Assembly: GCA_965368975.1 (NCBI GenBank)
Contig: CBDUPA010000002.1
Location: 96,001 to 160,000, forward strand
DNA: 64,000 nucleotides
Direction: 5' to 3'
Source of the DNA: an uncultured bacterium
GTDB taxonomy: Bacteria; Acidobacteriota; Thermoanaerobaculia; Multivoradales; JAHZIX01
The translations under genes and the position numbers were made by a program. The stretch's first letter is position 1. Each line of letters begins with the position of its first letter. Shown piece by piece: positions 33,539-52,261 of this stretch. The notes under the pieces are model-generated. The model was given only the letters and a program-made list of their open reading frames with translations, made no database searches and was not told the DNA's origin.

Positions 33539-33557
33539 AGCCCCAGCGAGATTCGAC

Positions 33558-34580: not shown

Positions 34581-34590
34581 AGCACCGACA

Positions 34591-35583
34591 ATGCTCTTTC
34601 ATCCAGGCTTCGCGGGTGCCATCCTGCTCGCCGCCGTGCTCTGCCAGGCATCGCCAGTCGAGACTCAGAGTACCGTTCCAAAGGACGTCCAGCCGGCGCC
34701 TTCGCCGGCACCACGGGGCATGATCTGGATTCCTGCCGGACGGACGACAATCGGCTCCGACCACCACTACTCGGAAGAGCGGCAGGCCCACGTGGTCGAG
34801 GTCGGGGGATTCTGGATAGATCGCTTCGAGGTGACGAACCAACGATTCGCGGAGTTCGTGGAGGCCACGGGCTACGCCACTACCGCCGAGCGAGCCACCG
34901 AGCTCGGATTTCCCGCCGCGGGCTCCGCCGTCTTTCAGCCCCCCACCGAAGGAGGAGCTGGCTGGACCTTCCTGGCGGGCGCCACCTGGCGCCACCCGGA
35001 AGGCCCCGGAAGTTCGATCGATGGTCGGTTGGATGAGCCCGTGGTGCATGTCTCCTTCGAGGATGCGGTCGCCTTCGCCACCTGGAGTGGCCGTACCCTA
35101 CCGACGGAAGAACAGTGGGAACACGCCGCCCGCCTCGGGCTCGGGGAGCCGGGTTCACCGTCGTGGCAGGCACCTGAGACGGCAACGGGAAAGCCTCTCG
35201 CCAATACCTGGCAGGGGTACTTTCCGCTCGAGAACCAGGCTCTCGATGGGTTCCCAGGTCGAGCTCCGGTAGGTAGCTTTCCACCTGACGAGCTCGGCGT
35301 CTTCGACATGATCGGCAACGTGTGGGAGTGGACCCGCAGTCCCTACTGTGGCCAGCACGGATCGACCAACGCGGGGACTTGTGAGCAGGACGGCTACGAC
35401 CCACAACAACCGGGAGGCTCGCCCGGTGTCATCAAAGGCGGCTCCTACCTCTGCGCTCCCACGGCCTGTCGCCGCTACCGTGCGTCCGCGCGCCAGCCGC
35501 AAGACCGAAGACTCGGGACCAATCACCTGGGCTTCAGGACCGTGGTCGAACCGACGTCCCCCACCTCCGAGAGTCGGAAGTAG
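34591..35583 (+). CDS. Formylglycine-generating enzyme (SUMF1/FGE family)
   Basis: EVTNQRF, WRHPEGP, PVVHVSFEDA, LPTEEQWE, DMIGNVWEW, KGGSYLCAPTACRRYR, HLGFR. Confidence 0.93.
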   Translation: MLFHPGFAGAILLAAVLCQASPVETQSTVPKDVQPAPSPAPRGMIWIPAGRTTIGSDHHYSEERQAHVVEVGGFWIDRFEVTNQRFAEFVEATGYATTAERATELGFPAAGSAVFQPPTEGGAGWTFLAGATWRHPEGPGSSIDGRLDEPVVHVSFEDAVAFATWSGRTLPTEEQWEHAARLGLGEPGSPSWQAPETATGKPLANTWQGYFPLENQALDGFPGRAPVGSFPPDELGVFDMIGNVWEWTRSPYCGQHGSTNAGTCEQDGYDPQQPGGSPGVIKGGSYLCAPTACRRYRASARQPQDRRLGTNHLGFRTVVEPTSPTSESRK

Positions 35584-35587
35584 CGGA

Positions 35588-38221
35588 TCAAGCCGCTACG
35601 GCTTGAATCCGCTTCAGGAGCACCCCGACGTTCGCAATCCGCTGATCCGGCTTCTTCTCTAGGCACTGCAGCAGCAACCGCTCCAGCTCCGCCGGAATCT
35701 CCGGCCAGTGCGCGCTCGGAGGGATCGGATCTTCGTTGATGTGCGCCACGACGATCTGCATGGCTGTTTTGCCAGAGAACGGTAGCTTGCCGGTGAACAT
35801 CTCGTAGAACACCATGCCGCAGGCGTAGATGTCCGCGCGCTGGTCGGGCTCTTCACCCTGCAGCTGCTCCGGTGCCAGGTAGTGCGGCGTGCCAACGAGA
35901 GAACCTGGTTCGGTCTGGCCAGCGGTTGTTCGCTTGATCGGACGCGCGATGCCGAAGTCCATCAGTTTGGCGTTGCCGGCGTTGTCGATGATCAGGTTCT
36001 CTGGCTTGATATCTCGATGCAGCACACCTTCCTGGTGTGCCGCCTGCAAGCCGGCGCACAGTTGACGCGCCAGCCGCAGGCCGGCGGACAGTGGCAGTCG
36101 TCCCGTCTGCTCCAGCAAGTACCGCAGCGTCAGGCCGCGTACGTACTCCATGGAGATGAAGGCAATGCCGGCCAGGTCGCCGAAATCGTAGGTCCGCAGC
36201 ACGTTCGGGTGGGTGATACGACGCGCCAGCTTGAGTTCGATCTTCAGGCGCTCCAAGCCTTCCGAATCGTCGAACGCTTCGCGCTTCAGGGTCTTGAGCG
36301 CCACCAGGTCGTCCAGCTCGCGATCCTTGGCCTTGTACACGACGCCCATGCCACCGCTACCGAGCACGCTCAACAGTTCGAAGCGGTTGCCCAGCACCGA
36401 GCCGGGACCGATGCCGGAAAGCGTCATCTGCGCCGAACCATCCGCCGACGTCATGGCAATGGTGCGTGACGTTGGCGCCAGGCCGGCGAGACGCTCGGCG
36501 GCATTGGCATCGAGCACAAAAAGTGGCTGCGTGCTGAGTGCGCCCTGCGACGCGTGCAGCTCGACGCCGGAGCGCTGGAAGCTATCCTGCAGTTCCTCAC
36601 GGACCGAGCGCGCAAGCAAGATGTCTCCCGGTGTCGCCTCGCGCAGGAGCGTGTCTAGTTGCAACACGACGGAGCCGACCAGAGCGTGCTTGGGGTGCTC
36701 ACCCCAGGCTACCGAGCCATACACGATCTCGCCTTGGGCCACCGCGACGGCGGGTGGATCTGCTTGCGAGAAGGCATCGTCCCCACGCAGGTGGCGTACC
36801 AGCTGGCCTGCCGCGACGACCGCGTTGAGGGTCGCTCCCAGGCCCTCGAAGCGCGCCAAGACGCGGTGGCCGGCCAGGGCTTCGATGTGACCATGGCGCG
36901 CGGCAACAGCGGAGGCGACCCTGCGGAGGTCACGGGTCACGCTTTCGATCGTCGCCTCGGCGTCGTTCTGACTGCGCAGCTGGGCGAAGCGTCGCAGCTC
37001 GACAGCCAGCAAAGCCACCGGTCGAACCGACGGGGCAATGAGAGCTTCCCCGACATCCGGGTCGGGCAGGTAACGCGACAGGTCACTGACGTAGGCTTCG
37101 ATCTCGGTCTTCTCGCGCAGGTCGCCGAGCAGGGAGTTGAAGGCACGCGCCAGCTGCGAGACCTCACCACCTCCGCTCTCCGGGATGCTGCGGCTGTAGT
37201 CTCCTTGCGCCGCCGCCTCGGCGGCTGTGACCAGTTGCTTGACGGGTTGCAGGGTACGACGTGACAGGGCGTAGGAGAGCACCAGGGCGATCAGTAGCGA
37301 CAGGCCGCCGGCGATCAGGATGGCACGCTGCATGGCCCGGTAGCCGCTCAGCTCGGCATCAACGGAGAAGAGGCTGACGGTGGCGCCCGCGATCTCGCCC
37401 GTGGAGTCGACCAGCGGTACGGCACTGGCACGATACCGGTCGTCCAACTCCACCTCGTAGCGCGTCACTTCTTCGCCACGCTCCAGCACCTGGCTGAGGA
37501 TGCCGTCACTCTGTAGCCGCTGGCGCAAGCGGTCGGCGAGAGCGGCGTCGAGAGTCGTCGCCGGGATCTGCAGTGAGCCGTCGGCTCGAGCGAGCACGAA
37601 GTTGACGTCCGAACCGCTGATGCGTTTGATCTCGGAGGCCAGGGCGTCGTCGACGGCGAAGCCGGTCACCAGCAAGCCGTAGAGGTCGAAGTTGGGACTG
37701 AGAATCGGCACCACGGCGGCCTGGAAGAGGCGGTCGCTCTCGAGCCAGAATCCCGCCTGCCGTTGCGATGCCGTGAGAACGGCCTCGACCAGCGGCATGG
37801 AGGAGAGATCAGAACCGAAGTCGCCTGGGCGGTCCGTGCGCACCAGGACCCGGCCTTCCGGGTTCAAGATAATCGCGAACTCGAAGCCCATGCTCTGCTG
37901 GCGCTCGCCCAGGATGTCGAGCATCGAGCCGCGATCGACGATCCCCTCCCCGTCCAGACCGCCGCCGGACGCCTCGATGATGTAGCTGGTGAACGGCGTG
38001 TCGTTGGAAAAGACCTGCGAGATCAACTCCAGCTGGTCGAAGCGACGCTCGCGCATCTCGGCCTGGATCGACTGGCTGGTCTCCAGGGAGCTTCGGATCG
38101 CCGTCTCGGCACTACGGTTGCCGATCAGATAGGTCACCCCGACGGCGGCCCCGATCGACAGCGTCACCAGCAGGGCGCTGATCAGGAAGATGCGAACTCC
38201 GAGAGGCAATGAGATGCGCAT
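35588..38221 (-). CDS. Membrane sensor: TM-Cache-like-TM-HAMP-degenerate class III cyclase-Ser/Thr kinase
   Basis: Two TMs, HAMP (PVKQL..GEVSQLARAFNSL), cyclase-like middle region, kinase GSGGMG/VALK/HRDIKPEN/DFG/APE. Confidence 0.88.
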   Translation of the reverse strand: MRISLPLGVRIFLISALLVTLSIGAAVGVTYLIGNRSAETAIRSSLETSQSIQAEMRERRFDQLELISQVFSNDTPFTSYIIEASGGGLDGEGIVDRGSMLDILGERQQSMGFEFAIILNPEGRVLVRTDRPGDFGSDLSSMPLVEAVLTASQRQAGFWLESDRLFQAAVVPILSPNFDLYGLLVTGFAVDDALASEIKRISGSDVNFVLARADGSLQIPATTLDAALADRLRQRLQSDGILSQVLERGEEVTRYEVELDDRYRASAVPLVDSTGEIAGATVSLFSVDAELSGYRAMQRAILIAGGLSLLIALVLSYALSRRTLQPVKQLVTAAEAAAQGDYSRSIPESGGGEVSQLARAFNSLLGDLREKTEIEAYVSDLSRYLPDPDVGEALIAPSVRPVALLAVELRRFAQLRSQNDAEATIESVTRDLRRVASAVAARHGHIEALAGHRVLARFEGLGATLNAVVAAGQLVRHLRGDDAFSQADPPAVAVAQGEIVYGSVAWGEHPKHALVGSVVLQLDTLLREATPGDILLARSVREELQDSFQRSGVELHASQGALSTQPLFVLDANAAERLAGLAPTSRTIAMTSADGSAQMTLSGIGPGSVLGNRFELLSVLGSGGMGVVYKAKDRELDDLVALKTLKREAFDDSEGLERLKIELKLARRITHPNVLRTYDFGDLAGIAFISMEYVRGLTLRYLLEQTGRLPLSAGLRLARQLCAGLQAAHQEGVLHRDIKPENLIIDNAGNAKLMDFGIARPIKRTTAGQTEPGSLVGTPHYLAPEQLQGEEPDQRADIYACGMVFYEMFTGKLPFSGKTAMQIVVAHINEDPIPPSAHWPEIPAELERLLLQCLEKKPDQRIANVGVLLKRIQAVAA

Positions 38222-38287: not shown

Positions 38288-38986
38288 TCAATTGTAGCGG
38301 TCGCGGCGGCTGTACGGCTTGCCGAACTTGTTCAGGTGCTCCGGCACGCGACGGCGGCTCAAGTCCAGGCGTAGCACCAACGTACCCTCGCGTGGAAGCT
38401 GGATGTCGACGGTCACTGGCTGTGCCCGCTCTTGCCACACCGTCAGCCGGCCCGGCCCGGCGGGCAGATCTTCCAGCCGGAAGCGGCCATCGACGCTCGG
38501 CCGAGTGTAGAAGGGCGTATCGAGCACCAGGATGTGGGCACTCATCGCATAGTGCACATTGCAGAAGACGCGTACCAGTCCGGCTTCGTCGAAGGTGTGG
38601 CTCTTGCCCTCGCCACGCCGGTACAGGCCGACGTCGAAGCGGTTGCCGGGCGACACCGAGAAGACGTTGTGCAAGATTGGATCTTCGTTCGGGAATCGCA
38701 CCGTGCCGCCACGTGGAATCACCAGCAGACCAGGCTCGAACTCTTTGTTGCGCGTCACCATGCTCAGCGGCTCGGCCGGCGGTTCGAGTTCGATCTCCGC
38801 GCCTTCCGTCGATGGCTGGTAGTAGACCACGACGTCTTCGACATCCGTCGTACGCAGTGCCTGACCACGCTCATTGAACAACTGGATGCGCCCGTTCAGC
38901 ACGTGCTGTGCCGCCGCCGGCCAGCTCACCAGGGCTAGCAGAACGGCGGCCAGGGCAGACCGAAATGGGGTCGTCGGCATGGGCAT
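38288..38986 (-). CDS. Exported cupredoxin-like protein with carboxypeptidase-regulatory-like segment
   Basis: Signal peptide, FEP..G.TVRFPNED..HNVFS, CNVHYAM (His/Cys/His/Met), GRFRLEDLPAG. Confidence 0.82.
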   Translation of the reverse strand: MPMPTTPFRSALAAVLLALVSWPAAAQHVLNGRIQLFNERGQALRTTDVEDVVVYYQPSTEGAEIELEPPAEPLSMVTRNKEFEPGLLVIPRGGTVRFPNEDPILHNVFSVSPGNRFDVGLYRRGEGKSHTFDEAGLVRVFCNVHYAMSAHILVLDTPFYTRPSVDGRFRLEDLPAGPGRLTVWQERAQPVTVDIQLPREGTLVLRLDLSRRRVPEHLNKFGKPYSRRDRYN

Positions 38987-39040
38987 GTTCAAGATCCTCG
39001 AGGCTCGGATCTTAGCAGATGCACGCGACCTCACCGGGCT

Positions 39041-40915
39041 CTAGTCTTGCTCGACCACGACCTGCTGGTCGACACCTTCGACCGCAACGTCCTGCTGCGA
39101 GCCATCCGGCCAGTGGACGCGTAGTGCCTCGACCTGCGTCGCGGAGCCGAGACCAAAGGTGACCGGCAGCTCGACCTGCGACAGGTAGCCCCGCGTTGGC
39201 ATCACCTGACGGCGTTGCATGACGCCGCCCACTGTCAGCTCGACCCAGGCTCCGATCGCATCGACGTTGGGTGCCTTGCCCTGCAAGCGCACGCGCAGCC
39301 AGTGGTGACCGGTCGCCTGGTCATTGCGCAGCAGCAACGGCCTACCGCCCACCTGGGTCAGGACGACATCGAGATCACCGTCGCCATCGATGTCGGCATA
39401 CGAGCAGGCGCGGCCCACCAGATCCTGGGCCAGAGCCCCGGTCAGCTCCGGCGGCACCGGCTCGAAACGCTCGCCGGTATTCCAGAACAGCTGTGCCGGC
39501 TGACGGTAACTCTGGCTCGGGTCGACGGTGGCAATCTCGTCTTCCAGGTGACCGTTGGTCTGCAGCAGGTCGAGTCGGCCGTCGAGATCGGCATCGAACA
39601 GGAACAAGCCGAAGGTCAGCATCCGGCGCGACGGCGCACCGATGCCCTCGCTGATCGACTCGTCGACAAAGAAGGTAGGATCGTCCTGGCTGACGTAGGC
39701 CGAGCTCATCTCGTTGGCAAAGTTGCCGATCAGGAAGGCCAGATGCTCGTCGTTGCGGTGATGGCCGACGTCAACACCCATGGCTCCGGTGGCATTGCCG
39801 TCGCGGTCGTAGGCCAGGCCGAAGAACTCGCCAACCTCTTCGAAGGTGCCATCACCCAGGTTGTGGAAGAAGAAGTTGCGCACCGTGTCGTTGGCCACGA
39901 AGAGGTCCATCCAGCCATCGGCATCGATGTCCGCGATGCCCAACGCCAGCGACTTGGCCTCCGGCACGCCGGTGGCGGCATTGCCAACCCGCATCCCCGC
40001 CTCGGCGGTGGCATCCTCGAAGGTGCCGTCGCCCAGGTTGCGGTAGAAGTAAGGGTAGGTGCCCTCGTAACTCTGCGGCGGTCCGTAAGCGCGGCCGACA
40101 CCAGCCAGCCGGAAGTCGAGCTGGAAGTCGATGTCTTTCGACCAGCGCACGTAGTTGGCCACGAAGAGGTCGAGGTCGCCATCGTTGTCGGCGTCGAAGA
40201 AGCCAGCGCCGGTGCTCCACTCACTGGCTTCACCGGCGACGCCCGCGCTTGCCGTCACGTCTTCGAACCGACCGTCGCCACGGTTGCGTAGCAGGCGGTT
40301 CTGGCCCACGGCGGTGACGAAGACATCGCGCCAGCCATCGGCATCGATGTCGCCCACCGCCACGCCCATGCCGTAGTGGCTGATGTCGAGCCCAGCGGCG
40401 ACGGTGACGTCCTCGAACGTGCCGTCACCGCGATTGCGGTAGAGCGCCATGGTCGGTGCCGGTACTCGCGAATCGTTGAACGGCCACGCCGTGGAGTTGA
40501 CGAACAGCAGATCGGCGTCGCCATCGTTGTCGTAGTCGAAGAAAGCAGCGCCGCTGCCCATGGTCTCGGGCAGCAGCTTGTCACCCGTGGCTCCGTTGAC
40601 GTGGGTGAAGTCGATACCGGCCGCGGCCGTCATGTCGGTGAAGATCACGGCGGGCAGGTCCCCGGCTTCACTGTGCACCACTCGCTCGGGTGCCTCTGCC
40701 TCGACCTCTAGCTCCGGTCCCTGCGTCTCCGTTTCACGGGCGAAGAACACGTAGAACAGGACGGCAAGTACAGCGGCACCGACGAGCACCAGCATCGAGA
40801 CGCGGAAGGCCTGGCCGATCACGGTGTCGTCGGTGCTGACGACCTCGCCTCCCTCGTCGAGAATCACATCTTCGTTGCCCCGCAACTCGTCGGGCGTCTG
40901 TCCATCATCCTTCAC
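39041..40915 (-). CDS. Membrane-anchored CRTAC1-family (FG-GAP repeats + ASPIC/UnbV) protein
   Basis: N-terminal TM, LLPETMGSG, many DxDxDG loops, DAIGA..GYLSQ..FGLG..VHWPDG. Confidence 0.9.
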   Translation of the reverse strand: MKDDGQTPDELRGNEDVILDEGGEVVSTDDTVIGQAFRVSMLVLVGAAVLAVLFYVFFARETETQGPELEVEAEAPERVVHSEAGDLPAVIFTDMTAAAGIDFTHVNGATGDKLLPETMGSGAAFFDYDNDGDADLLFVNSTAWPFNDSRVPAPTMALYRNRGDGTFEDVTVAAGLDISHYGMGVAVGDIDADGWRDVFVTAVGQNRLLRNRGDGRFEDVTASAGVAGEASEWSTGAGFFDADNDGDLDLFVANYVRWSKDIDFQLDFRLAGVGRAYGPPQSYEGTYPYFYRNLGDGTFEDATAEAGMRVGNAATGVPEAKSLALGIADIDADGWMDLFVANDTVRNFFFHNLGDGTFEEVGEFFGLAYDRDGNATGAMGVDVGHHRNDEHLAFLIGNFANEMSSAYVSQDDPTFFVDESISEGIGAPSRRMLTFGLFLFDADLDGRLDLLQTNGHLEDEIATVDPSQSYRQPAQLFWNTGERFEPVPPELTGALAQDLVGRACSYADIDGDGDLDVVLTQVGGRPLLLRNDQATGHHWLRVRLQGKAPNVDAIGAWVELTVGGVMQRRQVMPTRGYLSQVELPVTFGLGSATQVEALRVHWPDGSQQDVAVEGVDQQVVVEQD

Positions 40916-43860
40916 GGTTGGGCTCCTCCGGCGGCAGCCACCGGGGTCGAGAGCTTGGCGGGGGCCGCTATCGCTGGCAGCTCGAAGGGGGCGGCTCGAC
41001 GCGGCTCAGTGGACAGCTCATAGGCCCCCGGCCGCTGCAAATCGTAGATCACGATCGCTTCGGCGGCGTGGTTGGCCGCCGGATCGTTGGCACGTGCGAC
41101 GGCGACCGCGCGGTCTCTGGCGTTGTCGTCCGGCTTGTACTTCTTGTAGAGGTCGAAATGCTCCCGGGCTCGGTCTCCTTGCCCCAGGTCACGCAGGATC
41201 AGGCTGCAATTGTAGTGCGCCGTGACGTTCTCCGGGTCCAGCTCCAGGCTGCGCTCGAAGAGGCTCAACGCCTCGTGCAGCAGCGCCTGGCGCGGCGCCT
41301 TGCGTTCGTCGCCGCGCTCCAGCTTGGCGCGTTCGAACAGCGTTTGTCCCAGCTCGTTGAGCAGTCGGTAGTCCTGGCTGAAGTCGAAACCACGGCGGCG
41401 CAGGTCCTCGGTGTCGCTGTCGACGACGCTCTTGAAGTTGGCGATCGCCTCGTCCAGGAAACCGTTCTGCTTGTTGACCTGACCGGTGAACCAGGCGATC
41501 GACCATGGTGGTGCCGGCGGGTCAAACTCGGCGGCCCGGCGTAGGGCCTCGATCGCCTGGTCTTGCACCGTACCCTGGGCCAAGTAGACACGCGCCAGGT
41601 TGAGCGGGCCATCCGGCCGCCCGAGCGCCTCGACACGCGTGAAGGCCTCCTCCGCCTGTCGCAACTCGCCCTTGGTCTTGCCGCCCTTGCGCAGCAGACC
41701 GATGCCGTAGTCGTTCCAGCGCTGCCACTCGGGAATGGATGACGGTGGATTCTCGATCGCCCCATCGGCCACCTGCGCGCCGCGAACCGGGAAGGTCAGA
41801 CGATCCTCGGCCAGGGTCAGGATCGGCAAGTCGTTGACCCACTCGGGGTCATCTTGCACGAAACGCATGTAGGGGGTGTCGAACTTGCGGAACTGCAGCC
41901 GCGCCTCGACGTTCACCGGGCCACGCACCCAGGACGGCACCTCCAGCTTGAAGTGCACGGTGTCCGCCGCGCCCGGCGGGATCTGGTGGTTGTAGAGGGC
42001 GACGAAGATGTCCTGCGCGTTGCGCCGATCGATGCGGTTGCCGTCGCGGTCGAGGACGTAGGAATTGACGAAGTGCGACCACGGATCGACCCGGTTCGCC
42101 GCGTCCATGCCACCACTGCGCCCGATCGCCTCGCCATCGGCGGTCACCAGCACGTCGAGCCAGATCTGGTTCGAGTCGGAGGTGCCCTGTGTGAACAGGT
42201 GCCCCATCTTGACCGTGCGGATGACGATGTCCATCAGGTAGGTTTCACCTGGCTCCAGGGCCGGCACAGAAGGCCGCAAGGGCGCAGTCAGAGCACCATC
42301 TGTATGACCCTGCGCACGCAGACCGAAGATATCCAGCCGCATCACGCCCTCGTTGAACGCCCGGTGCGCCTCGTTGACCTCGGCCAGCGGCGCCGACAAT
42401 TGATCCCGCAGCAGCTGCGGCAAGGCCGTGTTGGCACTGGGGAACTGGTGGTCGTGGACCTTCAACTCACCGGAGCCGTCGAAGTCCTGAGCGGCGAACT
42501 GCTGCGACGACTCGAGCGGCATGTGGCAACCGTTGCAGTTCGACTCGGCCACCGGCGGGTAGTAGAAGCTGCTGACGCCGTGGCCCGAGACACCGCTCAG
42601 GTGGTAGCTGTCGTAGTGGTTCTGGCCGCGCAGCCACTTGTACTTGTTGAGTTCCTCGGGCAGGTGCACCTTGTGGCATGTGCCGCAGAACTCGGGCGTC
42701 GTGTGCAACGGCTTCAAGAAGGTACGCTGGTGCAGCGCCGGCTTGGCCTTGACCAGCTGCTGATTGAGCCATTGCAGCGATGGCGACTGGCTGAAGGTGA
42801 AGGGATAGTGGATCGGCTCTTCGATTGTGTAGTCGGCATTGCCGCGCACACTGTTGACGTGGGTGATGGCGTGGCACGACGTGCAGGTGATACCAGCCTG
42901 GCCGGCCGGATCGCCCACGTCGTCGAAGTCGGGATCGTCGAACTTGCCGCTGAAGAACACCACCGGATCATGGCAACCGGCACAGAAGCGCGCCGCCTGC
43001 AGATCGCCGTCCCGCTCCAGCGCCACCTGACGCGTCTCGCGCACGCTGAACAGGTAGGGAGGGTTGTTGAACGAGCTGAAGCGATGCACGCTGTTGGCCC
43101 AGCTGGCGTGGCTGTCTTCGTGGCATTCCTGGCAGTAGGCGTCGTTGCTCAACACGTGCTCCGGGATGAAGTCGCCGGTCGCGGTGCGCGCCAGCGAGGG
43201 AAAGAAGTAGGCCTCGCCTGACGCGGGGCCCTCGACGTCCCAGCGCCGCGGATCTTGCATCTGCCAGACCACCATCACCACGCCAAAGACCAGCGCCACC
43301 ACCGCCCAGCGCATCCCCACCTGCCACCGGATCTTCTTGCCCACCAACCGATGCAGCACGAACAACCAGCCCGCCACGAACGGCGTGATCACGTGCATCC
43401 AGTACGCCACCGAGCGCACCTGCGGGTCGTTGACCACGATCACGCCTTCGAGTCGCGTCAGGATGACGCCACTGACCAACAGCAAGATCGCCGTCGCGAA
43501 CAAGGCATAGCCAACCCGCACGGCACGGCGGTTGGGGCGGTTGTGAGAGTTGAAGATGTGGATGCCGCCAAAGACGATCACCGGCACGATGATCAGCACG
43601 CCGAGAACCAGGTGCACCAGGAACATGTTCATATAGAACCAGTTCTGGTACGTCGTCTCGTGGAGCCACTCGAAGAATGTGACGCCACCCAAGTACACCG
43701 CGTTGACCGCCAGCAGCGCGAACAGGCCGAACACCACGGCCAGCAGCTGTTTCAGCTTCGGACCCACGGCGCGCCGGTACTTGGGTTTCTTGGGCGGGTG
43801 CCTCTTGGCTGAGGCCGGAGCGTTCGGATCAGGTGTCGAGGAAGGTGCAGTGTCGTTCAT
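40912..43860 (-). CDS. Membrane multiheme cytochrome c + TPR protein
   Basis: About five N-terminal TMs; CQECH, CAGCH, CTSCH, CGTCH, CNGCH; C-terminal TPRs (RWNDYGIGLL, AHYNCSLIL). Confidence 0.9.
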   Translation of the reverse strand: MNDTAPSSTPDPNAPASAKRHPPKKPKYRRAVGPKLKQLLAVVFGLFALLAVNAVYLGGVTFFEWLHETTYQNWFYMNMFLVHLVLGVLIIVPVIVFGGIHIFNSHNRPNRRAVRVGYALFATAILLLVSGVILTRLEGVIVVNDPQVRSVAYWMHVITPFVAGWLFVLHRLVGKKIRWQVGMRWAVVALVFGVVMVVWQMQDPRRWDVEGPASGEAYFFPSLARTATGDFIPEHVLSNDAYCQECHEDSHASWANSVHRFSSFNNPPYLFSVRETRQVALERDGDLQAARFCAGCHDPVVFFSGKFDDPDFDDVGDPAGQAGITCTSCHAITHVNSVRGNADYTIEEPIHYPFTFSQSPSLQWLNQQLVKAKPALHQRTFLKPLHTTPEFCGTCHKVHLPEELNKYKWLRGQNHYDSYHLSGVSGHGVSSFYYPPVAESNCNGCHMPLESSQQFAAQDFDGSGELKVHDHQFPSANTALPQLLRDQLSAPLAEVNEAHRAFNEGVMRLDIFGLRAQGHTDGALTAPLRPSVPALEPGETYLMDIVIRTVKMGHLFTQGTSDSNQIWLDVLVTADGEAIGRSGGMDAANRVDPWSHFVNSYVLDRDGNRIDRRNAQDIFVALYNHQIPPGAADTVHFKLEVPSWVRGPVNVEARLQFRKFDTPYMRFVQDDPEWVNDLPILTLAEDRLTFPVRGAQVADGAIENPPSSIPEWQRWNDYGIGLLRKGGKTKGELRQAEEAFTRVEALGRPDGPLNLARVYLAQGTVQDQAIEALRRAAEFDPPAPPWSIAWFTGQVNKQNGFLDEAIANFKSVVDSDTEDLRRRGFDFSQDYRLLNELGQTLFERAKLERGDERKAPRQALLHEALSLFERSLELDPENVTAHYNCSLILRDLGQGDRAREHFDLYKKYKPDDNARDRAVAVARANDPAANHAAEAIVIYDLQRPGAYELSTEPRRAAPFELPAIAAPAKLSTPVAAAGGAQP

Positions 43861-44095: not shown

Positions 44096-47000
44096 CTACC
44101 GGCCCGGCACCCCACCGGCCAGAGGCCGGATGAACCGCAACCCTGGACGCGTGTTGTAGAACTCCCGGTACAGGCGATGCTCCGGCGTATCCGGATAGGC
44201 AGCCGGAGCCTCGTAGGGATAGCCGGGCATGGCGTGGTACGGCAGCGGCTCGACGGTCTGCGAGTGGCCGGTGTTGGCGTCACCATCCTTGGCCCAGCCG
44301 TCGACGAAGAGCAGGAAGTCGCGCGTCCAGCCGTCCGGCAGGGTGGGCAAGGTGTCCGCGTCGAAGGTGAGGCGCAACTCGTCGCCAGAGCCCAGAATGA
44401 CAAAGCGGTCGTCGATCTCTTCGAGCAGGGGGCGGACGTCGCCGAAGCGCGTGTACAGGCCGCGCGTCGGGTTCCACATGCTCAGTGGACGCAGCTCGGC
44501 GTAGACGAAACGTTCCGGCTGCTTGCGCTCGGGGTGCACGATGACCTTGGAGAAGCCACGAAAGCGCAGCTCGGCTTGCTCTGGCTGCAGCTCAGTAAGC
44601 TGGACGGGCGGAGCGCTGGGATCCGACCCGAGGAAGATCTCGTCCCAGTAGAGGCACAGGTTGGTGACGATGCGCACCTTCCGCGACGACGACAGCCAGC
44701 GGCCAGTGAGGTCGACGGCGATGGTCTTGGGCTTGCCGGCGGGGATACCAAGATCGCCGATCACGGTCTGCCAGGCACCGGAGTCGTCCTGCATCTGGAG
44801 GTAGGGCATGATCAGCTCCCGCTCGGGGTGCTGACTGACACCAAGGAAGGTGCTGCCGTCGGCCCAGTCGACCCAACCTGCGAGGACGAGGACGGAAGCA
44901 CCATCACTTGCCAGGGGCACATCCCCGAAGTCCAGCTCGAGATGATGCAGCTCGGCGACGCCGGCATAGTCGCGATCGAAGTCGTCGGGATACCGCTGGT
45001 CCTTGGCCATCAGGCGTTCGAGAACGTCACGGCCTTGGTGGTCGCGGGCGGCGACCGGATAGTGACGCTCTCCGACACCGTAGAGGCGGAACTCGGGGAA
45101 CGGCGGGCCGACGAACTTGTCGTTGGTGAAGATGTCGACCTTGGCCGGATGGTCGACCGCGATCAAGTGCAGCTGGTCGAGATAGGCGACCTCGCGCAGC
45201 TCTTCCGTGACGCGGATCTCGTAGCGGCTGCCATCTGGAGTCTCGATCGGCGCCAGCGCGTCGCCGGGGATCTGTACGTACTCGTCGTGATCGGCCAGGA
45301 AGTACTCGCCGTCTCCGGCCGCCGCGCCGAGAGGGGCGACACCGAGGATGTCGGTGATGAAGCGGTACTCTTCGCCGTCCCAGGTGAAAACCATCGGGCA
45401 CGAGCCAGAGAGGCGCGGCGCTTCTTCGTACAAGACACCCTGGTTCGCGTCCTGACGCGCTTCGTTCTGGATCAGGCCGTTGGGCCAGGTGATGCGTACG
45501 GCATCGACCTGCTCACTCCCCTTCTCGATGGGGCCGGCCTGCTCGATGGGGCCGAGACCGAAGTGCAGCGGTACACCGTCGTAAAGCCGTTTCTGGTAGC
45601 GCGCTCCGGCCCGCACCTCGACCTCCGCACCCGGTGCCAGCTGCAGGTTCTTGACCCCACGCAGCGCCACACGCAGGTACCCCCCGCCGCGTGTCTGGTT
45701 GCGCAGCAAGCTCAGCGTGCCGTCTGCCTCCAGAGCGGCGACGTCGACGCGGCCGTCGGCATCGAAATCGGCGCTGACCAGGTGCCGGGCGGAGGTGGGC
45801 CAGCCCTCGGCGGGCTGCGTGTCGGCAGCTCGGGCGGCAGCGAAGCGGCCCTCGCCACGATTGCGGTGCACGCCAGCGACACTCAGGAGTTCGCGAAGGG
45901 TGCGGTTCTCGACATCGGCGGCCGCGAGCGGCGCGCGAGCGTCGAGAGGCAGGGCGGTGAAGCCGAGGCTGCGCGTATCGCCTGGCTGGTTGCGCAGCAG
46001 GACGGCGCCTTCTGGCCGGGCAGCCAGCACGTCCGTCCAGCCATCGTGGTCGAAGTCACCGGCGTGCAGTTCGGTGGTGCCCGCGGGCACGGACGGCAGT
46101 GGTTCGATGGCGTAGCGGCCACCCAGGCGATCGCGCAGCAGAACGCCGGGGCGATCCTGGAAAGCGATGGCGAGATCCATGCCTTGCGTATCGGCCACCA
46201 GGTCGAAACGTGCGGCGGCGGTCGCTCGGCCTCCGGCGAACCGTTCGTCGACGAAGGGGAAGTCGGCGCTCTTGTCGTCGAACTGCAGGCGGCCGTCGGC
46301 ATCCAGGCCAGCGTTGCGCAGCAGAGCCGGTGTTGTACCGAGCAGGACGAGATCGACATCGTAGTCGTGGTCGTAGTCGAGCCAGATAGCGAGGTCGAAG
46401 GTACGCTTGGGCAGCTTGGCTGACGGGGACATCGACTGCGCGACAAAGCGGCCGCCCTGGTTGCGCCACAACTGGGGCCCCTCATCGGTGAGCACGGCGA
46501 GGTCGACCAGACCGTCGTTGTCGATATCTCCCGGTGCCACGGCGCGCACGGAGGCACACTCCGGATCCGGTGCACCACACAGGCCGCTCTCCGGCACCGC
46601 CTCTCGGCCGCCGCGCCAGAGGCGCATGCCGTGCGCGCCCCAGGCGAGGAGGTCCGAGCCGCCGTCGCCGTCCAGGTCGATCACGTGCAGGCCCGCCCGG
46701 GTCTGCGACGCCGGCAGTTGCGCCAGCTCGACGCGGTCGAAGCGCGGCTCGGCGCGCACCGCGACGTCGCGCACGGCGGCTGGGTCGATCGGGTCGTAGA
46801 GCTCGGCGTAGTAGGACCACTCCAGGTCTTCCGTCGTCCCGGCCGCCTGCTGCCGCTGCTTGAGCTCACGAAACACCGCCATCTCACGCTGTGCCTCTTC
46901 CTGACGTCGCAACTGCCGGTAGGTGGTGGCGAGCTGGAAGCGCGGACCGGCGAGATCGGGAGCCAGATCGGCGGCCTGCTGGAAGAACTCAATGGCGCGC

Positions 47001-47479
47001 TCGCGGTCGCCTTCCAGCTTGTGGAGCACGCCCAAGTTGTACTGGGTAATTGGCTCTTCCGGAACGCGCTCGGCCATGCCCTGCAATTGCACGATGGCGT
47101 CGGCGTGACGGCCCTGGTTCTTGTAGGCGATGCCGAGACAGAACCAGGTGTGCGGGATCGACGAATCTTGCCGCTGGGCCTTTTCCAGCTCGGCGATGCC
47201 TTTGTCTTCTTGGCCGGTCTGCAACAAGGCCAGGCCATAGTTGATGCGTTCGCGCACGGACTCGGGATTCAGCTCCAGGGCCTTGCGCAGCTCGTCAACC
47301 GCCTCGTACTGCGTCGCCGGATTCTCGTAGAACGCCTTGCCGAGGTTGCGGTGGTGCCAGAGCACGTCGTCTTGAGCTTGTGCTGCCGTAGAACTGAGAA
47401 CGGCCGCCAGCAGCAAGAGTGCACGCACGAACCTGGAAAGCGCAATCCGGGTAGGGGTAGGTCCATGTGCTTGCCTCAC
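44096..47479 (-). CDS. Exported TPR + FG-GAP + ASPIC/UnbV protein with C-terminal 'GSCP' domain
   Basis: Signal peptide, TPRs, DxDxDG loops, LHFGLG..ITWPNG, then GSCPMVFTWDG..EELREVAYLD..GWAKDGD. Confidence 0.88.
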   Translation of the reverse strand: MRQAHGPTPTRIALSRFVRALLLLAAVLSSTAAQAQDDVLWHHRNLGKAFYENPATQYEAVDELRKALELNPESVRERINYGLALLQTGQEDKGIAELEKAQRQDSSIPHTWFCLGIAYKNQGRHADAIVQLQGMAERVPEEPITQYNLGVLHKLEGDRERAIEFFQQAADLAPDLAGPRFQLATTYRQLRRQEEAQREMAVFRELKQRQQAAGTTEDLEWSYYAELYDPIDPAAVRDVAVRAEPRFDRVELAQLPASQTRAGLHVIDLDGDGGSDLLAWGAHGMRLWRGGREAVPESGLCGAPDPECASVRAVAPGDIDNDGLVDLAVLTDEGPQLWRNQGGRFVAQSMSPSAKLPKRTFDLAIWLDYDHDYDVDLVLLGTTPALLRNAGLDADGRLQFDDKSADFPFVDERFAGGRATAAARFDLVADTQGMDLAIAFQDRPGVLLRDRLGGRYAIEPLPSVPAGTTELHAGDFDHDGWTDVLAARPEGAVLLRNQPGDTRSLGFTALPLDARAPLAAADVENRTLRELLSVAGVHRNRGEGRFAAARAADTQPAEGWPTSARHLVSADFDADGRVDVAALEADGTLSLLRNQTRGGGYLRVALRGVKNLQLAPGAEVEVRAGARYQKRLYDGVPLHFGLGPIEQAGPIEKGSEQVDAVRITWPNGLIQNEARQDANQGVLYEEAPRLSGSCPMVFTWDGEEYRFITDILGVAPLGAAAGDGEYFLADHDEYVQIPGDALAPIETPDGSRYEIRVTEELREVAYLDQLHLIAVDHPAKVDIFTNDKFVGPPFPEFRLYGVGERHYPVAARDHQGRDVLERLMAKDQRYPDDFDRDYAGVAELHHLELDFGDVPLASDGASVLVLAGWVDWADGSTFLGVSQHPERELIMPYLQMQDDSGAWQTVIGDLGIPAGKPKTIAVDLTGRWLSSSRKVRIVTNLCLYWDEIFLGSDPSAPPVQLTELQPEQAELRFRGFSKVIVHPERKQPERFVYAELRPLSMWNPTRGLYTRFGDVRPLLEEIDDRFVILGSGDELRLTFDADTLPTLPDGWTRDFLLFVDGWAKDGDANTGHSQTVEPLPYHAMPGYPYEAPAAYPDTPEHRLYREFYNTRPGLRFIRPLAGGVPGR

Positions 47480-49455
47480 ATCCCACCCCGAATCTTTCGT
47501 TCCCCTTCGACCACCAGTGAAATCTCATTCACTGGCACCACGGTCATCGGCACCATGCTTTCGTTGTCATCCTCATCCGGTACCCAGATCTCGCGCGCCC
47601 CGGACGGCCAGCGTACCTCCAGCTTGACCACCCGCGATGCCGCACCGACACCGATGTGCACCCGCGTCGAACTGGAACTCGAGTAGGCGTTGCCGCCGTT
47701 GACCTCACGCAGGTAGGTCTCGCCATCGTCCGTGGTCAAGAGCACCCGCGCTCCGATGGCATCGCGGTTCGAGCGCGTACCGCGCAGGCGCAGCTGCACC
47801 CAGCCGCCGGCATTCTCTGCCACGGCGCGATAGAGCAAGGCAGGTTGGTTGGCGTTGGTCTGGTAGAGGTCGAGCAGGCCGTCGTTGTCGTAATCGGCCA
47901 TGGCGATGCCGCGGCCGTCCAGATCGTTGTCGACGCCCGCGTCGGCGGCCATTTCGCGGAACGTGCCGTCCCCGAGGTTGTGGAACAAGCGCTGCTTCTG
48001 GTAGCCGGACCAGGTCATGTCGCCGATGTCTGGATAGCTGTGCAGATTCGAGAAATCCATGTCCGGCGACAAGATGGCTTCGAGCAGCACCGGGATGTAG
48101 TTGCCCTCGCCCCTGGAGCGCAGGCCGTTGACCACGAAAAGATCTTCCCAGCCGTCGTTGTCGAAGTCGCCGAACTTGCCGGCCCAGCCCCAGTCGGTGT
48201 CGCAGGTGCCGGTCTCGCGGGCCAGGTCCAGGAAGGTGCCGTCGCCCACGTTGTGCCACAGCATGTTGCACTCACGCATGTACTCGTCGGTGATGTTGGT
48301 GACGTAGACGTCCAGGTGACCGTTGCGGTCGTAGTCGCCGAAATCGACGTTCATGCCCTTGCGCGTGTCGAAGCCACCGAGCGCTTCTTCGGTCACTTCG
48401 TGAAAGGTACCGTCGCCATTGTTGAAGAAGAGGCGATCAGTGCCGTAGTCGCCAGCCAGGTAGACATCCGGCCAGGCGTCGCCGTTCAGGTCCGCGTGGC
48501 CGACATCGAGCGTCCAGCCGGTGTGTCCGGCGAAACCCGCCGCCTCGGTGACGTTCACAAAGCCGCGACCGCCAGCCTTCTCCCCGGGAAGCCCGTTCTC
48601 CAAAGGAACATTGCGCCAGAAGGTGACGCCACCGCCGTTGTCGGCGTAGTCGAGATTGTTGGGTAGCACCTGCGGCGTCTCGAGATCGAGCAGGTTGAGC
48701 GGCTGGAAGTAGTTGCCGAGCAGGAGGTCGAGATAGCCGTCACGATCGGCGTCGAAGGCGACGACGGCAATGGTATTGCCGAACTCGGTCAGCCCCGCCA
48801 CCTGGCTGACGTCCTCGAAACGCCAGACGCCGGCTTCGTCGGGACCCAGGCTGCGGTAGAGCAGCGGCGTGCCGAAGCGTGCGACCAGCAGATCGCGCCG
48901 GCCGTCGTTGTCGTAGTCGAACCAGAGGGCGTCCGCGACGATCGACGAAGCGTCGTTGCCCCCCGCAACCCCTGCCTGCTCGGCGATGTCGGTGAAGCGC
49001 AGCTCGCCGGAAGGGATGAACTCGTTGCGCATCAGGTGATTCAGCTTTCCCGTGTCGGAGTCGGTGACGAAGAGATCGATATCCCCGTCATCGTCGAAGT
49101 CGCCCGCGGCTGCCGCGCTGCCACCATCGGTAAACATCTGTAGCACCTCGGCCTTCGGGCGATCGACGAACTTGCGCGTCGAGTGCACGAAGCGCACGCC
49201 CGCGGCGGCACCGATTTCTTCGAAGCGTGGCCGCGGCACGGCGGCCGGCGTCCCAGTGCTTGCCGGCGTCCCAGTGTTTGCTGGCGAGGGAGGGCTTGCT
49301 GGCGAGGGAGGGCTTGCTGGCGAGGAAGGGCTTGCTGACGAGGAAGGGGTCGCCGGTATCGAGGGGGGGGCTTGCCCCACGGCCGGTGTGCCCAAAACCA
49401 AGACACCCATACCCAGCATGCACACCAACGACCCACCCGCGAGATGTTCCATCAT
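47476..49455 (-). CDS. Exported CRTAC1-family (FG-GAP + ASPIC/UnbV) protein
   Basis: Signal peptide, Pro/Ser linker, DxDxDG loops, YVTNITDEY, WGWAGKF, SNRDAIGARV..VRWPSG. Confidence 0.9.
   Translation of the reverse strand: MMEHLAGGSLVCMLGMGVLVLGTPAVGQAPPSIPATPSSSASPSSPASPPSPASPPSPANTGTPASTGTPAAVPRPRFEEIGAAAGVRFVHSTRKFVDRPKAEVLQMFTDGGSAAAAGDFDDDGDIDLFVTDSDTGKLNHLMRNEFIPSGELRFTDIAEQAGVAGGNDASSIVADALWFDYDNDGRRDLLVARFGTPLLYRSLGPDEAGVWRFEDVSQVAGLTEFGNTIAVVAFDADRDGYLDLLLGNYFQPLNLLDLETPQVLPNNLDYADNGGGVTFWRNVPLENGLPGEKAGGRGFVNVTEAAGFAGHTGWTLDVGHADLNGDAWPDVYLAGDYGTDRLFFNNGDGTFHEVTEEALGGFDTRKGMNVDFGDYDRNGHLDVYVTNITDEYMRECNMLWHNVGDGTFLDLARETGTCDTDWGWAGKFGDFDNDGWEDLFVVNGLRSRGEGNYIPVLLEAILSPDMDFSNLHSYPDIGDMTWSGYQKQRLFHNLGDGTFREMAADAGVDNDLDGRGIAMADYDNDGLLDLYQTNANQPALLYRAVAENAGGWVQLRLRGTRSNRDAIGARVLLTTDDGETYLREVNGGNAYSSSSSTRVHIGVGAASRVVKLEVRWPSGAREIWVPDEDDNESMVPMTVVPVNEISLVVEGERKIRGGM
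49244..49349. repeat. 18-bp in-frame tandem repeat encoding a Pro/Ser/Ala linker
   Basis: GCCGGCGTCCCAGTG(C/T)TT x2, then GCTGGCGAGG(G/A)AGGGCTT x~4. Confidence 0.85.
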
Positions 49456-52258: not shown

Positions 52259-52261
52259 GCT

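What the first reader, a model, noticed from the sequence alone, without database searches (positions are those of the whole stretch)
42520..43760. Cytochrome b-like membrane domain fused to a five-CxxCH domain and TPRs
Seen: the N-terminal TM helices carry two His pairs (FLVHLVLG...GGIH and YWMHVITP...FVLH), followed by CQECH, CAGCH, CTSCH, CGTCH and CNGCH, a beta-rich region and TPRs. Established: paired TM histidines ligate two b-hemes in di-heme cytochromes b, and CxxCH motifs attach c-hemes. Inference: a single-chain wire from the membrane to the periplasm, whose TPRs dock the overlapping downstream UnbV protein.
Basis: partly seen in the sequence, partly recalled or inferred. Interest (0 to 1): 0.72.

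Follow-up and report, generated by a model that had tools for sequence, protein, structure and literature searches.

The report
Membrane b/c haem protein with propeller partner
This gene encodes a membrane protein that probably carries two haems inside the membrane and five outside it, and holds a calcium-propeller partner protein with its tail, forming a widespread but unstudied bacterial electron-transfer unit whose substrate is unknown.

Summary
Window 40912..43860 (-) encodes a 982-aa protein with five TM helices, five CxxCH motifs, a beta-sandwich and a TPR arm. It overlaps the downstream FG-GAP/UnbV (CRTAC1-like) gene by 4 nt.

The four TM histidines are invariant in 36 genome homologues from several phyla. 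In 56 aligned sequences (this protein plus 55 distant representatives) the outer pair H83/H156 is kept in 53 each. The inner pair H101/H170 is lost together in six representatives, in at least three lineages, along with Gly117 on TM3. This fits two bis-His haem sites.

A confident model (pLDDT 91) gives a four-helix bundle that resembles cytochrome b6/b, CybB and FdnI. It scores no better than designed helical bundles, and I could not measure His geometry. The haem cap matches pentahaem c552 (5ZE8, Z 12.5).

Complex prediction supports TPR-propeller docking (0.89; best control 0.00). The partner follows the gene in 55 of 58 loci.

My searches found no paper on this module. This scan has met the same family on other genomes at least 15 times.

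The parts
40912..43860 (-). Whole gene: 982-aa membrane b/c-type multihaem protein with beta-sandwich and TPR arm
   Evidence: ORF and translation. More than 7,910 homologous protein clusters. At least 563 species genomes encode a relative.
43261..43761 (-). Five-helix membrane domain (aa 34-200). TM1-4 form the cytochrome-b-like four-helix bundle, and TM5 leads out to the periplasm.
   Evidence: AF2 helices 34-67, 74-105, 111-134, 146-173, 179-200 at pLDDT 91. K+R counts follow the positive-inside rule. VIA gives cytochrome b6 Z 11.0, CybB Z 11.0, HyaC Z 10.8 and FdnI Z 10.1, but designed bundles reach Z about 10.
43612..43614 (-). His83 (TM2, periplasmic side): candidate ligand of the outer b haem
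   Evidence: H in 53 of 56 aligned sequences. Invariant in A1 and A4.
43558..43560 (-). His101 (TM2, cytoplasmic side): candidate ligand of the inner b haem
   Evidence: H in 46 of 56. Lies 18 residues after His83 in 45 of 46. Lost together with His170 in 6 representatives.
43393..43395 (-). His156 (TM4, periplasmic side): candidate ligand of the outer b haem
   Evidence: H in 53 of 56. Aligns with the first helix-D haem ligand of cytochrome b in hhalign.
43351..43353 (-). His170 (TM4, cytoplasmic side): candidate ligand of the inner b haem
   Evidence: H in 45 of 56. Lies 14 residues after His156 in 45 of 45. Aligns with the second helix-D ligand of cytochrome b.
43468..43512 (-). Gly117...Gly131 on TM3, 14 residues apart: small residues that track the inner and outer His pairs
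   Evidence: Four-His class: G117 43 of 44, G131 44 of 44. Outer-pair-only class: G117 2 of 6, G131 5 of 6. Spacing is 14 in 43 of 45.
42391..43164 (-). Periplasmic pentahaem cytochrome c cap (aa 233-490) with CxxCH at aa 243, 293, 326, 392, 442 (window 43120-43134, 42970-42984, 42871-42885, 42673-42687, 42523-42537)
   Evidence: Motifs. Conserved in 55-56 of 56. 5ZE8: Foldseek E 3.7e-4, VIA Z 12.5 over 199 aa at rmsd 4.1 A, profile E 1.4e-3. Pfam Cytochrome_C554 E 1e-07.
41776..42348 (-). Beta-sandwich domain (aa 505-695), probably the Ig-like 'stem' that follows the haem cap in this cytochrome family
   Evidence: Nine strands by DSSP, with most 10-residue blocks at mean pLDDT 80-90. The cap-plus-Ig-stem layout is described for MccSep (preprint 10.1101/2025.11.18.688581, section 7). 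The fold itself was not searched on its own.
42160..42204 (-). Conserved loop G553-H554-x4-G559-T560-x-D562-x4-W567 in the beta-sandwich. His554 is a candidate fifth distal ligand or active-site residue.
   Evidence: H554 in 53 of 53 divergent full-length sequences; G553, G559, T560, D562 and W567 at 90% or more. The role is inferred.
41056..41742 (-). TPR arm (aa 707-935), predicted to dock the partner's propeller
   Evidence: Pfam TPR families. MamA Z 14.7. 46 of the 50 predicted interface residues lie between aa 728 and 938.
39041..40915 (-). Partner: 624-aa CRTAC1-like protein with an N-terminal membrane anchor, an FG-GAP propeller and a UnbV_ASPIC domain
   Evidence: Pfam. Human CRTAC1 9etn E 2.9e-29. 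Lies immediately downstream on the same strand in 55 of 58 loci. Predicted complex 0.89 against 0.00.
40912..40915 (-). GTGA overlap of the cytochrome's stop codon and the partner's start codon
   Evidence: Sequence. The same 4-nt overlap occurs in 25 of 60 related loci.

Best explanation
The gene encodes a seven-haem inner-membrane redox protein. TM1-4 form a cytochrome-b-like four-helix bundle. His83 (TM2) and His156 (TM4) hold a b haem near the periplasmic face. His101 (TM2) and His170 (TM4) hold a second b haem near the cytoplasmic face. TM5 leads into a periplasmic pentahaem c cap of the c552/ExtKL/MccSep type, followed by a beta-sandwich stem. The TPR arm then clamps the beta-propeller of the translationally coupled CRTAC1-like partner. 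Together they form a membrane-to-periplasm electron path that links the quinone pool, or less probably a cytoplasmic donor, to a periplasmic redox reaction at or beside the propeller. Shown here: architecture, topology, conservation and pairwise loss of the histidines, fold resemblance, synteny, and a predicted complex. Inferred: haem b occupancy, quinone coupling, direction of electron flow, and substrate.
For: All quoted motifs are present. The four TM His are invariant in 27 close homologues and in 36 genome homologues from Acidobacteriota, Planctomycetota, Gammaproteobacteria and others. Among 56 aligned sequences (this protein plus 55 representatives of 50%-identity clusters), H83 is kept in 53, H156 in 53, H101 in 46 and H170 in 45. 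Six representatives keep H83 and H156 but lack both H101 and H170. A quick tree needs at least 3 separate losses for this. Gly117 on TM3 goes with the inner pair and Gly131 with the outer pair: 43/44 and 44/44 in the four-His class, 2/6 and 5/6 in the outer-only class. The spacings are fixed at 18 (45 of 46) and 14 (45 of 45), and both place the two His on one helix face. A distant TPR-less paralogue in the same genome keeps H-x17-H, G-x13-G and H-x13-H in the same helices. The AF2 model of aa 1-500 has pLDDT 91.1 and pTM 0.84. Its TM1-4 align with cytochrome b6 (Z 11.0, 140 aa), CybB (Z 11.0, 141 aa), HyaC (Z 10.8) and FdnI (Z 10.1), all of which carry two b haems. The cap aligns with 5ZE8 at Z 12.5 over 199 aa. 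hhalign against cytochrome b of this genome and its relatives scores 31.5 (Prob 34.6%) and aligns H156, P160 and H170 with the helix-D ligands; the reversed control scores 19.3. The topology is N-in, and the genome has cytochrome c assembly genes. Partner docking gives ipSAE 0.89, 0.88 and 0.89, best of 3 controls 0.00, partner pLDDT 92, with the runs agreeing in at least 94% of contacts. That mark was reached by 116 of 157 solved complexes and 2 of 215 mismatched pairs. The partner gene follows in 55 of 58 loci, with the 4-nt overlap in 25 of 60.
Against: No curated b-type family matches the TM domain. Pfam at E up to 10 gives only Yip1 and two other unrelated families. NCBIfam gives nothing for it. 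Six-frame scans of this genome with PF00033 and PF01292 do not hit this gene. The hhalign probability is only 34.6%, and the helix-B histidines do not align with those of cytochrome b, since the spacing is 18 here against 14 there. The VIA Z of about 11 is not above designed helical bundles (8tn1 Z 10.1), and the tool warns that Z under about 13 is unspecific for helical bundles. Foldseek E-values for the TM hits are 0.15-1.7. I could not measure His-His distances. Two representatives lack only H170, and two lack more than the inner pair. The TM1 glycines are not conserved. Predicted interface residues are no more conserved than the rest: 15 of 50 against 140 of 396 are at least 90% conserved. 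Three of 58 loci lack the downstream partner. The first full-length model was poor in the TM and haem parts.
Confidence: 0.68

Rival explanations
1. The haem cap and beta-sandwich are themselves the enzyme, as in the related pentahaem polysulfide reductase MccSep. One c haem is the active site, completed by the invariant His554 loop from the beta-sandwich. The propeller only captures or presents a substrate, or regulates the enzyme.
For: In MccSep the Ig-like domain sends a loop carrying the catalytic residue to haem 2, and four haems are bis-His (preprint 10.1101/2025.11.18.688581, sections 7-8). In this family only three non-motif His in the cap are universal: H259 in 55 of 56, H377 in 55 of 56 and H471 in 56 of 56. 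H386 is kept in 46 of 56. His554 and its loop in the beta-sandwich are kept in 53 of 53, and Met447 in 51 of 53.
Against: There is no Cys or Sec outside the CxxCH motifs in the periplasmic part; the only other Cys is C885 in the TPR arm, so MccSep-type chemistry is excluded. His554 may simply be the fifth distal ligand of an ordinary bis-His haem. The position of the loop relative to the haems was not tested, and it had low confidence in the full-length model.
Confidence: 0.2
2. The membrane domain is only an anchor or binds something other than haem. The protein is then a membrane-tethered pentahaem c cytochrome that takes electrons from another quinol dehydrogenase.
For: No curated cytochrome b family matches the TM domain. 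The fold match is no better than for designed bundles. Some divergent members lack two to four of the histidines.
Against: A plain anchor would not need five helices with four buried His at fixed spacing, kept across phyla and lost in the pairs expected for haem sites together with the matching glycine. Nearly all natural TM matches in the fold search are two-haem b proteins.
Confidence: 0.12
3. The two b haems carry electrons across the membrane from a cytoplasmic donor, as in NOX, STEAP or cytochrome b561-type proteins, and not from the quinone pool.
For: The NOX5 TM domain, STEAP1/2 and a bacterial NADPH oxidase are among the fold matches. The inner His pair lies 3-4 residues from the cytoplasmic helix ends.
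Against: The protein has no cytoplasmic flavin or NAD(P)H domain; the N-terminus is 33 residues long. No conserved cytoplasmic partner gene was seen in the 80 loci. The closest profile match is to the quinone-reactive cytochrome b.
Confidence: 0.1

Closest known systems
CbcL of Geobacter sulfurreducens (single-chain dihaem cytochrome b fused to a nine-haem cytochrome c; menaquinol oxidase)
   Same: One polypeptide joins a transmembrane b-type domain to a periplasmic multihaem c domain, with no FeS, flavin or molybdopterin subunit (preprint 10.1101/2022.08.31.506072, passages read). It works as a quinol dehydrogenase (PMC7096707, passages).
   Different: CbcL has the 'three-helix' FdnI/Hyd-type histidine motif. 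Here all four His lie on two helices, as in bc1/b6f cytochrome b. The profile comparison favours cytochrome b (score 31.5) over the PF01292 type (18.5). This protein has five haems of the c552 type instead of nine, plus a beta-sandwich, a TPR arm and a dedicated propeller partner.
Pentahaem cytochrome c552 of Thermochromatium tepidum (PDB 5ZE8) and the 'PHC' group with Geobacter ExtKL/MccSep and GSU2801
   Same: It has five CxxCH motifs in a helical cap with the same fold (VIA Z 12.5, 199 aa, rmsd 4.1 A; Foldseek E 3.7e-4), followed by a beta-sandwich. The PHC grouping is described in PMC11976967 (passages), and the MccSep structure in the preprint's sections 7-8.
   Different: Those proteins are soluble. 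None is described with a five-helix His-bearing membrane domain, a TPR arm or a CRTAC1-like partner. The catalytic Cys and Sec of MccSep are absent here. Sequence similarity is marginal (E 1.4e-3 over aa 233-331).
Cytochrome b of bc1/b6f complexes (PF00033)
   Same: It is a four-helix bundle with two His on the second helix and two on the fourth. The helix-4 motif aligns (aromatic-x-x-H-x3-P...H, 14 apart), and a G-x13-G pair lies on the third helix.
   Different: There is no HMM match. The helix-2 spacing is 18, not 14. The glycines on the first helix are not conserved. There is no Rieske or c1 partner; instead the c haems are fused to the same chain.
Human CRTAC1 (PDB 9etn) and bacterial ASPIC/UnbV proteins (the partner)
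   Same: The partner has FG-GAP propeller repeats and a UnbV_ASPIC domain, and matches 9etn at E 2.9e-29.
   Different: The bacterial partner is membrane-anchored and is encoded with a cytochrome. I found no function reported for bacterial members.

Membership tests
Cytochrome b of bc1/b6f (Pfam PF00033) | Match to the family HMM above its cut-off | tested here: not met
   Pfam scan of aa 1-240 at E up to 10 gave only Yip1, DUF2070 and BrkB. The PF00033 six-frame scan of this genome hit only a gene on contig C10.
Cytochrome b of bc1/b6f (Pfam PF00033) | Four-helix bundle with two haem-ligand His on helix B and two on helix D | tested here: met
   H83/H101 lie on TM2 and H156/H170 on TM4 of a confident four-helix bundle. 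TM1-4 align with b6 helices A-D at Z 11.0. Haem binding itself was not tested.
Cytochrome b of bc1/b6f (Pfam PF00033) | His pairs 14 residues apart on both helices (the value for cytochrome b is recalled, and was seen in this genome's own cytochrome b) | tested here: not met
   TM4 spacing is 14 (45 of 45) but TM2 spacing is 18 (45 of 46).
Cytochrome b of bc1/b6f (Pfam PF00033) | Detectable homology by profile-profile comparison | tested here: inconclusive
   hhalign score 31.5, Prob 34.6%, 146 columns, with the helix-D His and Pro aligned. The reversed control scored 19.3 with Prob 1.3%.
Cytochrome b of bc1/b6f (Pfam PF00033) | Two non-covalent b haems bound | not testable with these tools
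   This needs haem extraction, spectra or a structure.
FdnI/HyaC/CybB-type dihaem cytochrome b (Pfam PF01292; the b domain type of CbcL) | HMM match, and ligand His spread over three helices | tested here: not met
   The PF01292 scan of this genome does not hit this gene. hhalign scored 18.5 (Prob 1.1%) against 15.1 for the reversed control. The conserved His lie on two helices only. Fold similarity is Z 10-11 and unspecific.
PHC pentahaem cytochromes (5ZE8, ExtKL/MccSep) | Five CxxCH motifs in a helical cap of the 5ZE8 fold | tested here: met
   Five motifs. VIA Z 12.5 over 199 aa, aligning aa 233-488 with residues 35-287 of 5ZE8. Foldseek E 3.7e-4, the only hit at E of 0.001 or less.
PHC pentahaem cytochromes (5ZE8, ExtKL/MccSep) | Ig-like beta-sandwich stem after the cap | tested here: inconclusive
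   A nine-strand region follows the cap at aa 505-695. Its fold was not searched alone, and the full-model search was filled by TPR hits.
MccSep polysulfide reductase | Haem-ligating Cys and catalytic Sec at haem 2 | tested here: not met
   The periplasmic part has no Cys outside the CxxCH motifs and no in-frame TGA. The NCBIfam ExtKL model scored 16.7 bits against a cut-off of 250.
TPR proteins | Tandem helical hairpins matching TPR profiles | tested here: met
   TPR_19 at 39.4 bits and TPR_16 at 36.5 bits are both above their cut-offs. MamA Z 14.7 over 171 of 175 residues.
CRTAC1 / ASPIC-UnbV family (the partner gene) | FG-GAP propeller repeats plus a C-terminal UnbV_ASPIC domain | tested here: met
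   FG-GAP_3 at 130.6 bits and UnbV_ASPIC at 71.5 bits. 9etn E 2.9e-29.

The most novel reading that the evidence does not exclude
The cytochrome and its CRTAC1-like partner form an undescribed respiratory-type enzyme. The seven-haem chain wires the quinone pool to a catalytic or substrate-binding calcium propeller. This would give the whole CRTAC1/ASPIC-UnbV family, which includes a human protein of unknown biochemical function, its first redox role. It would also add a widespread energy-metabolism module to Acidobacteriota, Planctomycetota and marine Proteobacteria.
Probability: 0.3. Interest if true: 0.85.

Novelty: new variant of a known kind. Interest (0 to 1): 0.66.

Why it matters
Single-chain b/c membrane cytochromes have so far been described for Geobacter CbcL, which its authors call unique. 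This family is a second, differently built solution. It has a bc1-like two-helix histidine motif, a c552-type pentahaem cap and a built-in docking arm.

It is far more widespread. More than 7,910 protein clusters match, and at least 563 species genomes from several phyla encode it, including the cultured planctomycete Saltatorellus ferox. It is about 60-70% identical across phyla, which implies a strongly selected function.

Its obligate partner belongs to the CRTAC1/ASPIC-UnbV family, for which I found no reported bacterial function. If the pair is a quinone-linked periplasmic redox enzyme, a common reaction in soil and marine bacteria is still unidentified. The pair gives a concrete handle for finding it.

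Tried and rejected
- **First full-length AF2 run.** It used 27 close homologues and gave pLDDT of about 45-55 in the TM and haem parts. I replaced it with a deeper alignment of aa 1-500.
- **Interface conservation.** There was no enrichment: 15 of 50 interface residues against 140 of 396 others are at least 90% conserved, Fisher p 0.82. The partner side gave 16 of 47 against 166 of 498.
- **Sequencing runs.** No public run was listed for window 39041-43860, and no RNA holder was listed.
- **ESM Atlas on aa 25-215.** The best named hit scored 0.84. A cluster with Cytochrom_B561 on 18% of members scored 0.83. Both are below the 0.9 level and are leads only.
- **Full-length model against the PDB by VIA.** The list was filled by TPR proteins, so the beta-sandwich stayed untested.
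- **Cupredoxin-like neighbour (38288..39034) as a conserved electron partner.** Rejected: it has no homologue in 0 of 80 related loci.
- **Ser/Thr kinase neighbour as part of the module.** It appears in 1 of 80 loci.
- **TM1 glycine pair G45/G59 as a cytochrome-b-like feature.** Rejected: 7 of 44 and 9 of 44.
- **Careful tree search.** It did not finish in the time allowed, so the count of three losses rests on the quick, midpoint-rooted tree.
- **Literature.** Searches for the cytochrome-CRTAC1 pairing found only a paper on a different CRTAC1 context, homologues of hydrazine synthase (PMC12758564, passages), and a paralogue list for Solibacter (PMC3174227, passages).
Full report
**The observation.**
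Window 40912..43860 (-) holds a 982-aa ORF. The finding's coordinates correspond to aa 34-447. All quoted motifs are present. His83 and His101 lie in FLVHLVLG...GGIH, and His156 and His170 lie in YWMHVITP...FVLH. CxxCH motifs start at aa 243, 293, 326, 392 and 442, and ten of the eleven cysteines lie in these motifs.

Pfam finds Cytochrome_C554 (E 1e-07) and several TPR families in this protein. It finds FG-GAP_3 and UnbV_ASPIC in the downstream gene 39041..40915. That gene's GTG start overlaps the cytochrome's TGA stop (GTGA). The start at 43860 has a GGAG ten bases upstream and follows a 235-nt gap after the previous gene.

**Topology.**
A deep alignment (120 rows) gave a confident model of aa 1-500, with pLDDT 91.1 and pTM 0.84. 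Its helices are 34-67, 74-105, 111-134, 146-173 and 179-200. Basic residues cluster in the N-terminus and in the TM2-3 and TM4-5 loops, while the TM1-2 loop has none. The protein is therefore N-in with five TM helices, and everything after aa 200 is periplasmic. This is required for haem attachment at CxxCH. The genome has three cytochrome c assembly genes.

**The histidines.**
All four are invariant in 27 homologues at about 70% identity and in 36 homologues taken from genomes of several phyla. I also aligned 56 sequences, namely this protein plus 55 full-length representatives of 50%-identity clusters at 33-62% identity. In these, H83 is kept in 53, H156 in 53, H101 in 46 and H170 in 45. Two of the rows are N-terminal fragments.

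The exceptions are informative. Six representatives keep H83 and H156 but lack both H101 and H170. Two lack only H170, and two lack more. A quick tree needs at least three separate losses for the six (the careful search did not finish).

Gly117 and Gly131 on TM3 follow the same split. G117 is present in 43 of 44 four-His sequences but only 2 of 6 outer-only ones. G131 is present in 44 of 44 and 5 of 6.

The spacings are fixed: 18 on TM2 (45 of 46), 14 on TM4 (45 of 45) and 14 for the glycines (43 of 45). Eighteen and fourteen residues correspond to 0 and 320 degrees of helical phase, so each helix presents both His on one face. H83 and H156 lie 9-10 residues from the periplasmic helix ends, and H101 and H170 lie 3-4 residues from the cytoplasmic ends.

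A distant TPR-less paralogue in the same genome matches only over aa 219-450, at 38% identity. It still has H-x17-H, G-x13-G and H-x13-H on its second, third and fourth helices. This is the pattern expected for two bis-His haem sites, each built from TM2, TM3 and TM4. I could not measure distances because model coordinates are not exposed to scripts.

**What the membrane domain resembles.**
No curated family matches it. By structure, TM1-4 align with cytochrome b6 (Z 11.0, 140 aa), CybB (Z 11.0, 141 of 174 aa), HyaC (Z 10.8), FdnI (Z 10.1), cytochrome b of bc1, NOX5 and STEAP. However, designed helical bundles reach Z of about 10, and the tool warns that such values are unspecific for helical bundles. 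Foldseek E-values for these hits are 0.15-1.7.

I then ran a profile-profile comparison. The query was a TM profile of 105 rows. Against cytochrome b from this genome and 24 relatives' loci, it scored 31.5 (Prob 34.6%, 146 columns) and aligned H156, P160 and H170 with the helix-D ligands. The helix-B histidines did not align. The reversed template scored 19.3. Against PF01292-type sequences it scored 18.5, with 15.1 for the reversed control.

The domain therefore works like, and is perhaps distantly related to, the bc1/b6f type of cytochrome b. It does not look like the three-helix FdnI type that CbcL carries. Membership in either family is not established.

**The periplasmic part.**
The cap (aa 233-488) matches pentahaem cytochrome c552 of T. 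tepidum. 5ZE8 is the only Foldseek hit at E of 0.001 or less (3.7e-4), with VIA Z 12.5 over 199 aa and profile E 1.4e-3. That protein has been grouped with Geobacter ExtKL and GSU2801 as 'PHC' cytochromes (PMC11976967). ExtKL is now described as MccSep, a polysulfide reductase with a haem cap and an Ig-like stem whose loop reaches haem 2 (preprint sections 7-8).

In this protein a nine-strand region follows the cap. Only H259, H377 and H471 are universal non-motif histidines in the cap. His554, in a conserved beta-sandwich loop, is kept in 53 of 53 sequences, and Met447 in 51 of 53. His554 may be the fifth distal ligand or an active-site residue; this is inference. MccSep's Cys and Sec are absent.

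**The partner.**
In 80 related genome loci, 55 of the 58 with at least 1500 nt downstream have a homologue of the CRTAC1-like gene immediately downstream on the same strand. By contrast, 10 of 67 have one anywhere in up to 6 kb upstream. The 4-nt overlap recurs in 25 of 60 loci. Two of the three exceptions have a polyprenyl synthetase gene there instead.

Complex prediction used aa 505-950 of the cytochrome with aa 80-624 of the partner, and 36-row alignments for both. It gave ipSAE 0.89, 0.88 and 0.89, with 0.00 for the best of 3 controls, partner pLDDT 92, and at least 94% of contacts shared between runs. That mark was reached by 116 of 157 solved complexes and 2 of 215 mismatched pairs. These counts hold only roughly here because my own alignments were used.

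Forty-six of the 50 interface residues on the cytochrome lie in the TPR arm. On the partner the contacts lie on propeller blades between aa 269 and 467. The only solved relative of the partner is human CRTAC1 alone, so the pass is unlikely to come from a remembered complex. Against this, interface residues are no more conserved than the rest of the protein.

**Distribution and literature.**
More than 7,910 protein clusters match the whole protein. For aa 1-480, 2,280 representatives of 50%-identity clusters match, 419 of them at E of 1e-30 or less. At least 563 species genomes carry the gene, including Acidobacteriota, Planctomycetota (among them the cultured Saltatorellus ferox), Gammaproteobacteria, Deltaproteobacteria and Latescibacterota.

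My searches found no paper on this pairing. One paper reports CRTAC1-family genes beside hydrazine-synthase homologues, which is a different context. Earlier notes of this scan describe the same family on other genomes at least 15 times. I re-tested their main claims here and agree with them.

**Verdict.**
The most likely mechanism is a 2b+5c haem path from the membrane to a TPR-held propeller partner (confidence about 0.7). Haem b occupancy, quinone coupling, direction of flow and substrate remain open. Each part is of a known kind, but the combination is an undescribed variant.

Noticed in passing
window 38288..39034 (-): A 248-aa ORF directly after the partner gene carries a blue-copper-like C-x2-H-x2-M motif (FCNVHYAM). 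It has weak Pfam hits to Copper-bind (E 0.0087) and CarboxypepD_reg (E 1.8e-4). It has no homologue in any of the 80 related loci, so it is a local addition.
   Followed up: partly
window 44096..54748 (-): Four more FG-GAP genes lie upstream in one co-directional, overlapping run: 44096..47479 (with TPRs), 47476..49455, 50336..52258 and 52262..54748. The last three carry clear UnbV_ASPIC domains, while the first has only a weak, below-cut-off match. A 295-aa TPR protein at 49452..50339 lies in the same run. With the partner gene, the window holds five CRTAC1-like paralogues.
   Followed up: partly
window 44096..47479 (-), aa ~590-1127: The C-terminal ~430 residues of the 1127-aa TPR/FG-GAP protein have no Pfam match. 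Eighteen of the 80 loci have a hit to this protein upstream of the cytochrome, e.g. L001, L008, L054 and L064 over the full length. It may be a third, optional component of the module.
   Followed up: partly
L082 688..2793 (-) (own genome, contig C1): This is a 701-aa TPR-less paralogue of the cytochrome. It has the same H-x17-H, G-x13-G and H-x13-H pattern. It has five haem motifs, the first written CxxxxCH (CGSSGCH). An overlapping FG-GAP gene follows it. A second copy of the module therefore exists without the TPR arm.
   Followed up: partly
L002 9006..9989; L068 4306..5436: In two of the three loci that lack the downstream propeller gene, a polyprenyl synthetase gene follows the cytochrome (in L002 with a 4-nt overlap). 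A hybrid histidine kinase comes next.
   Followed up: partly
window 40798..40915 (-), partner aa 1-40: The partner's short cytoplasmic N-terminus, just before its membrane anchor, is conserved across phyla: D29, D30 and I33 are nearly invariant and S40 is invariant (consensus DDxVIGRAFRxS). This is unusual for a simple signal anchor. It hints at a contact with the cytochrome's membrane domain, which I did not test.
   Followed up: no
window 35588..38221 (-): An 877-aa membrane sensor with sCache, HAMP and a Ser/Thr kinase domain lies directly downstream of the cluster. It is not conserved beside the module, appearing in 1 of 80 loci.
   Followed up: partly
window 31577..35583 (+): A sulfatase, a MetA-pathway outer-membrane-channel-like protein and a formylglycine-generating enzyme lie in a row on the opposite strand.
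   Followed up: no
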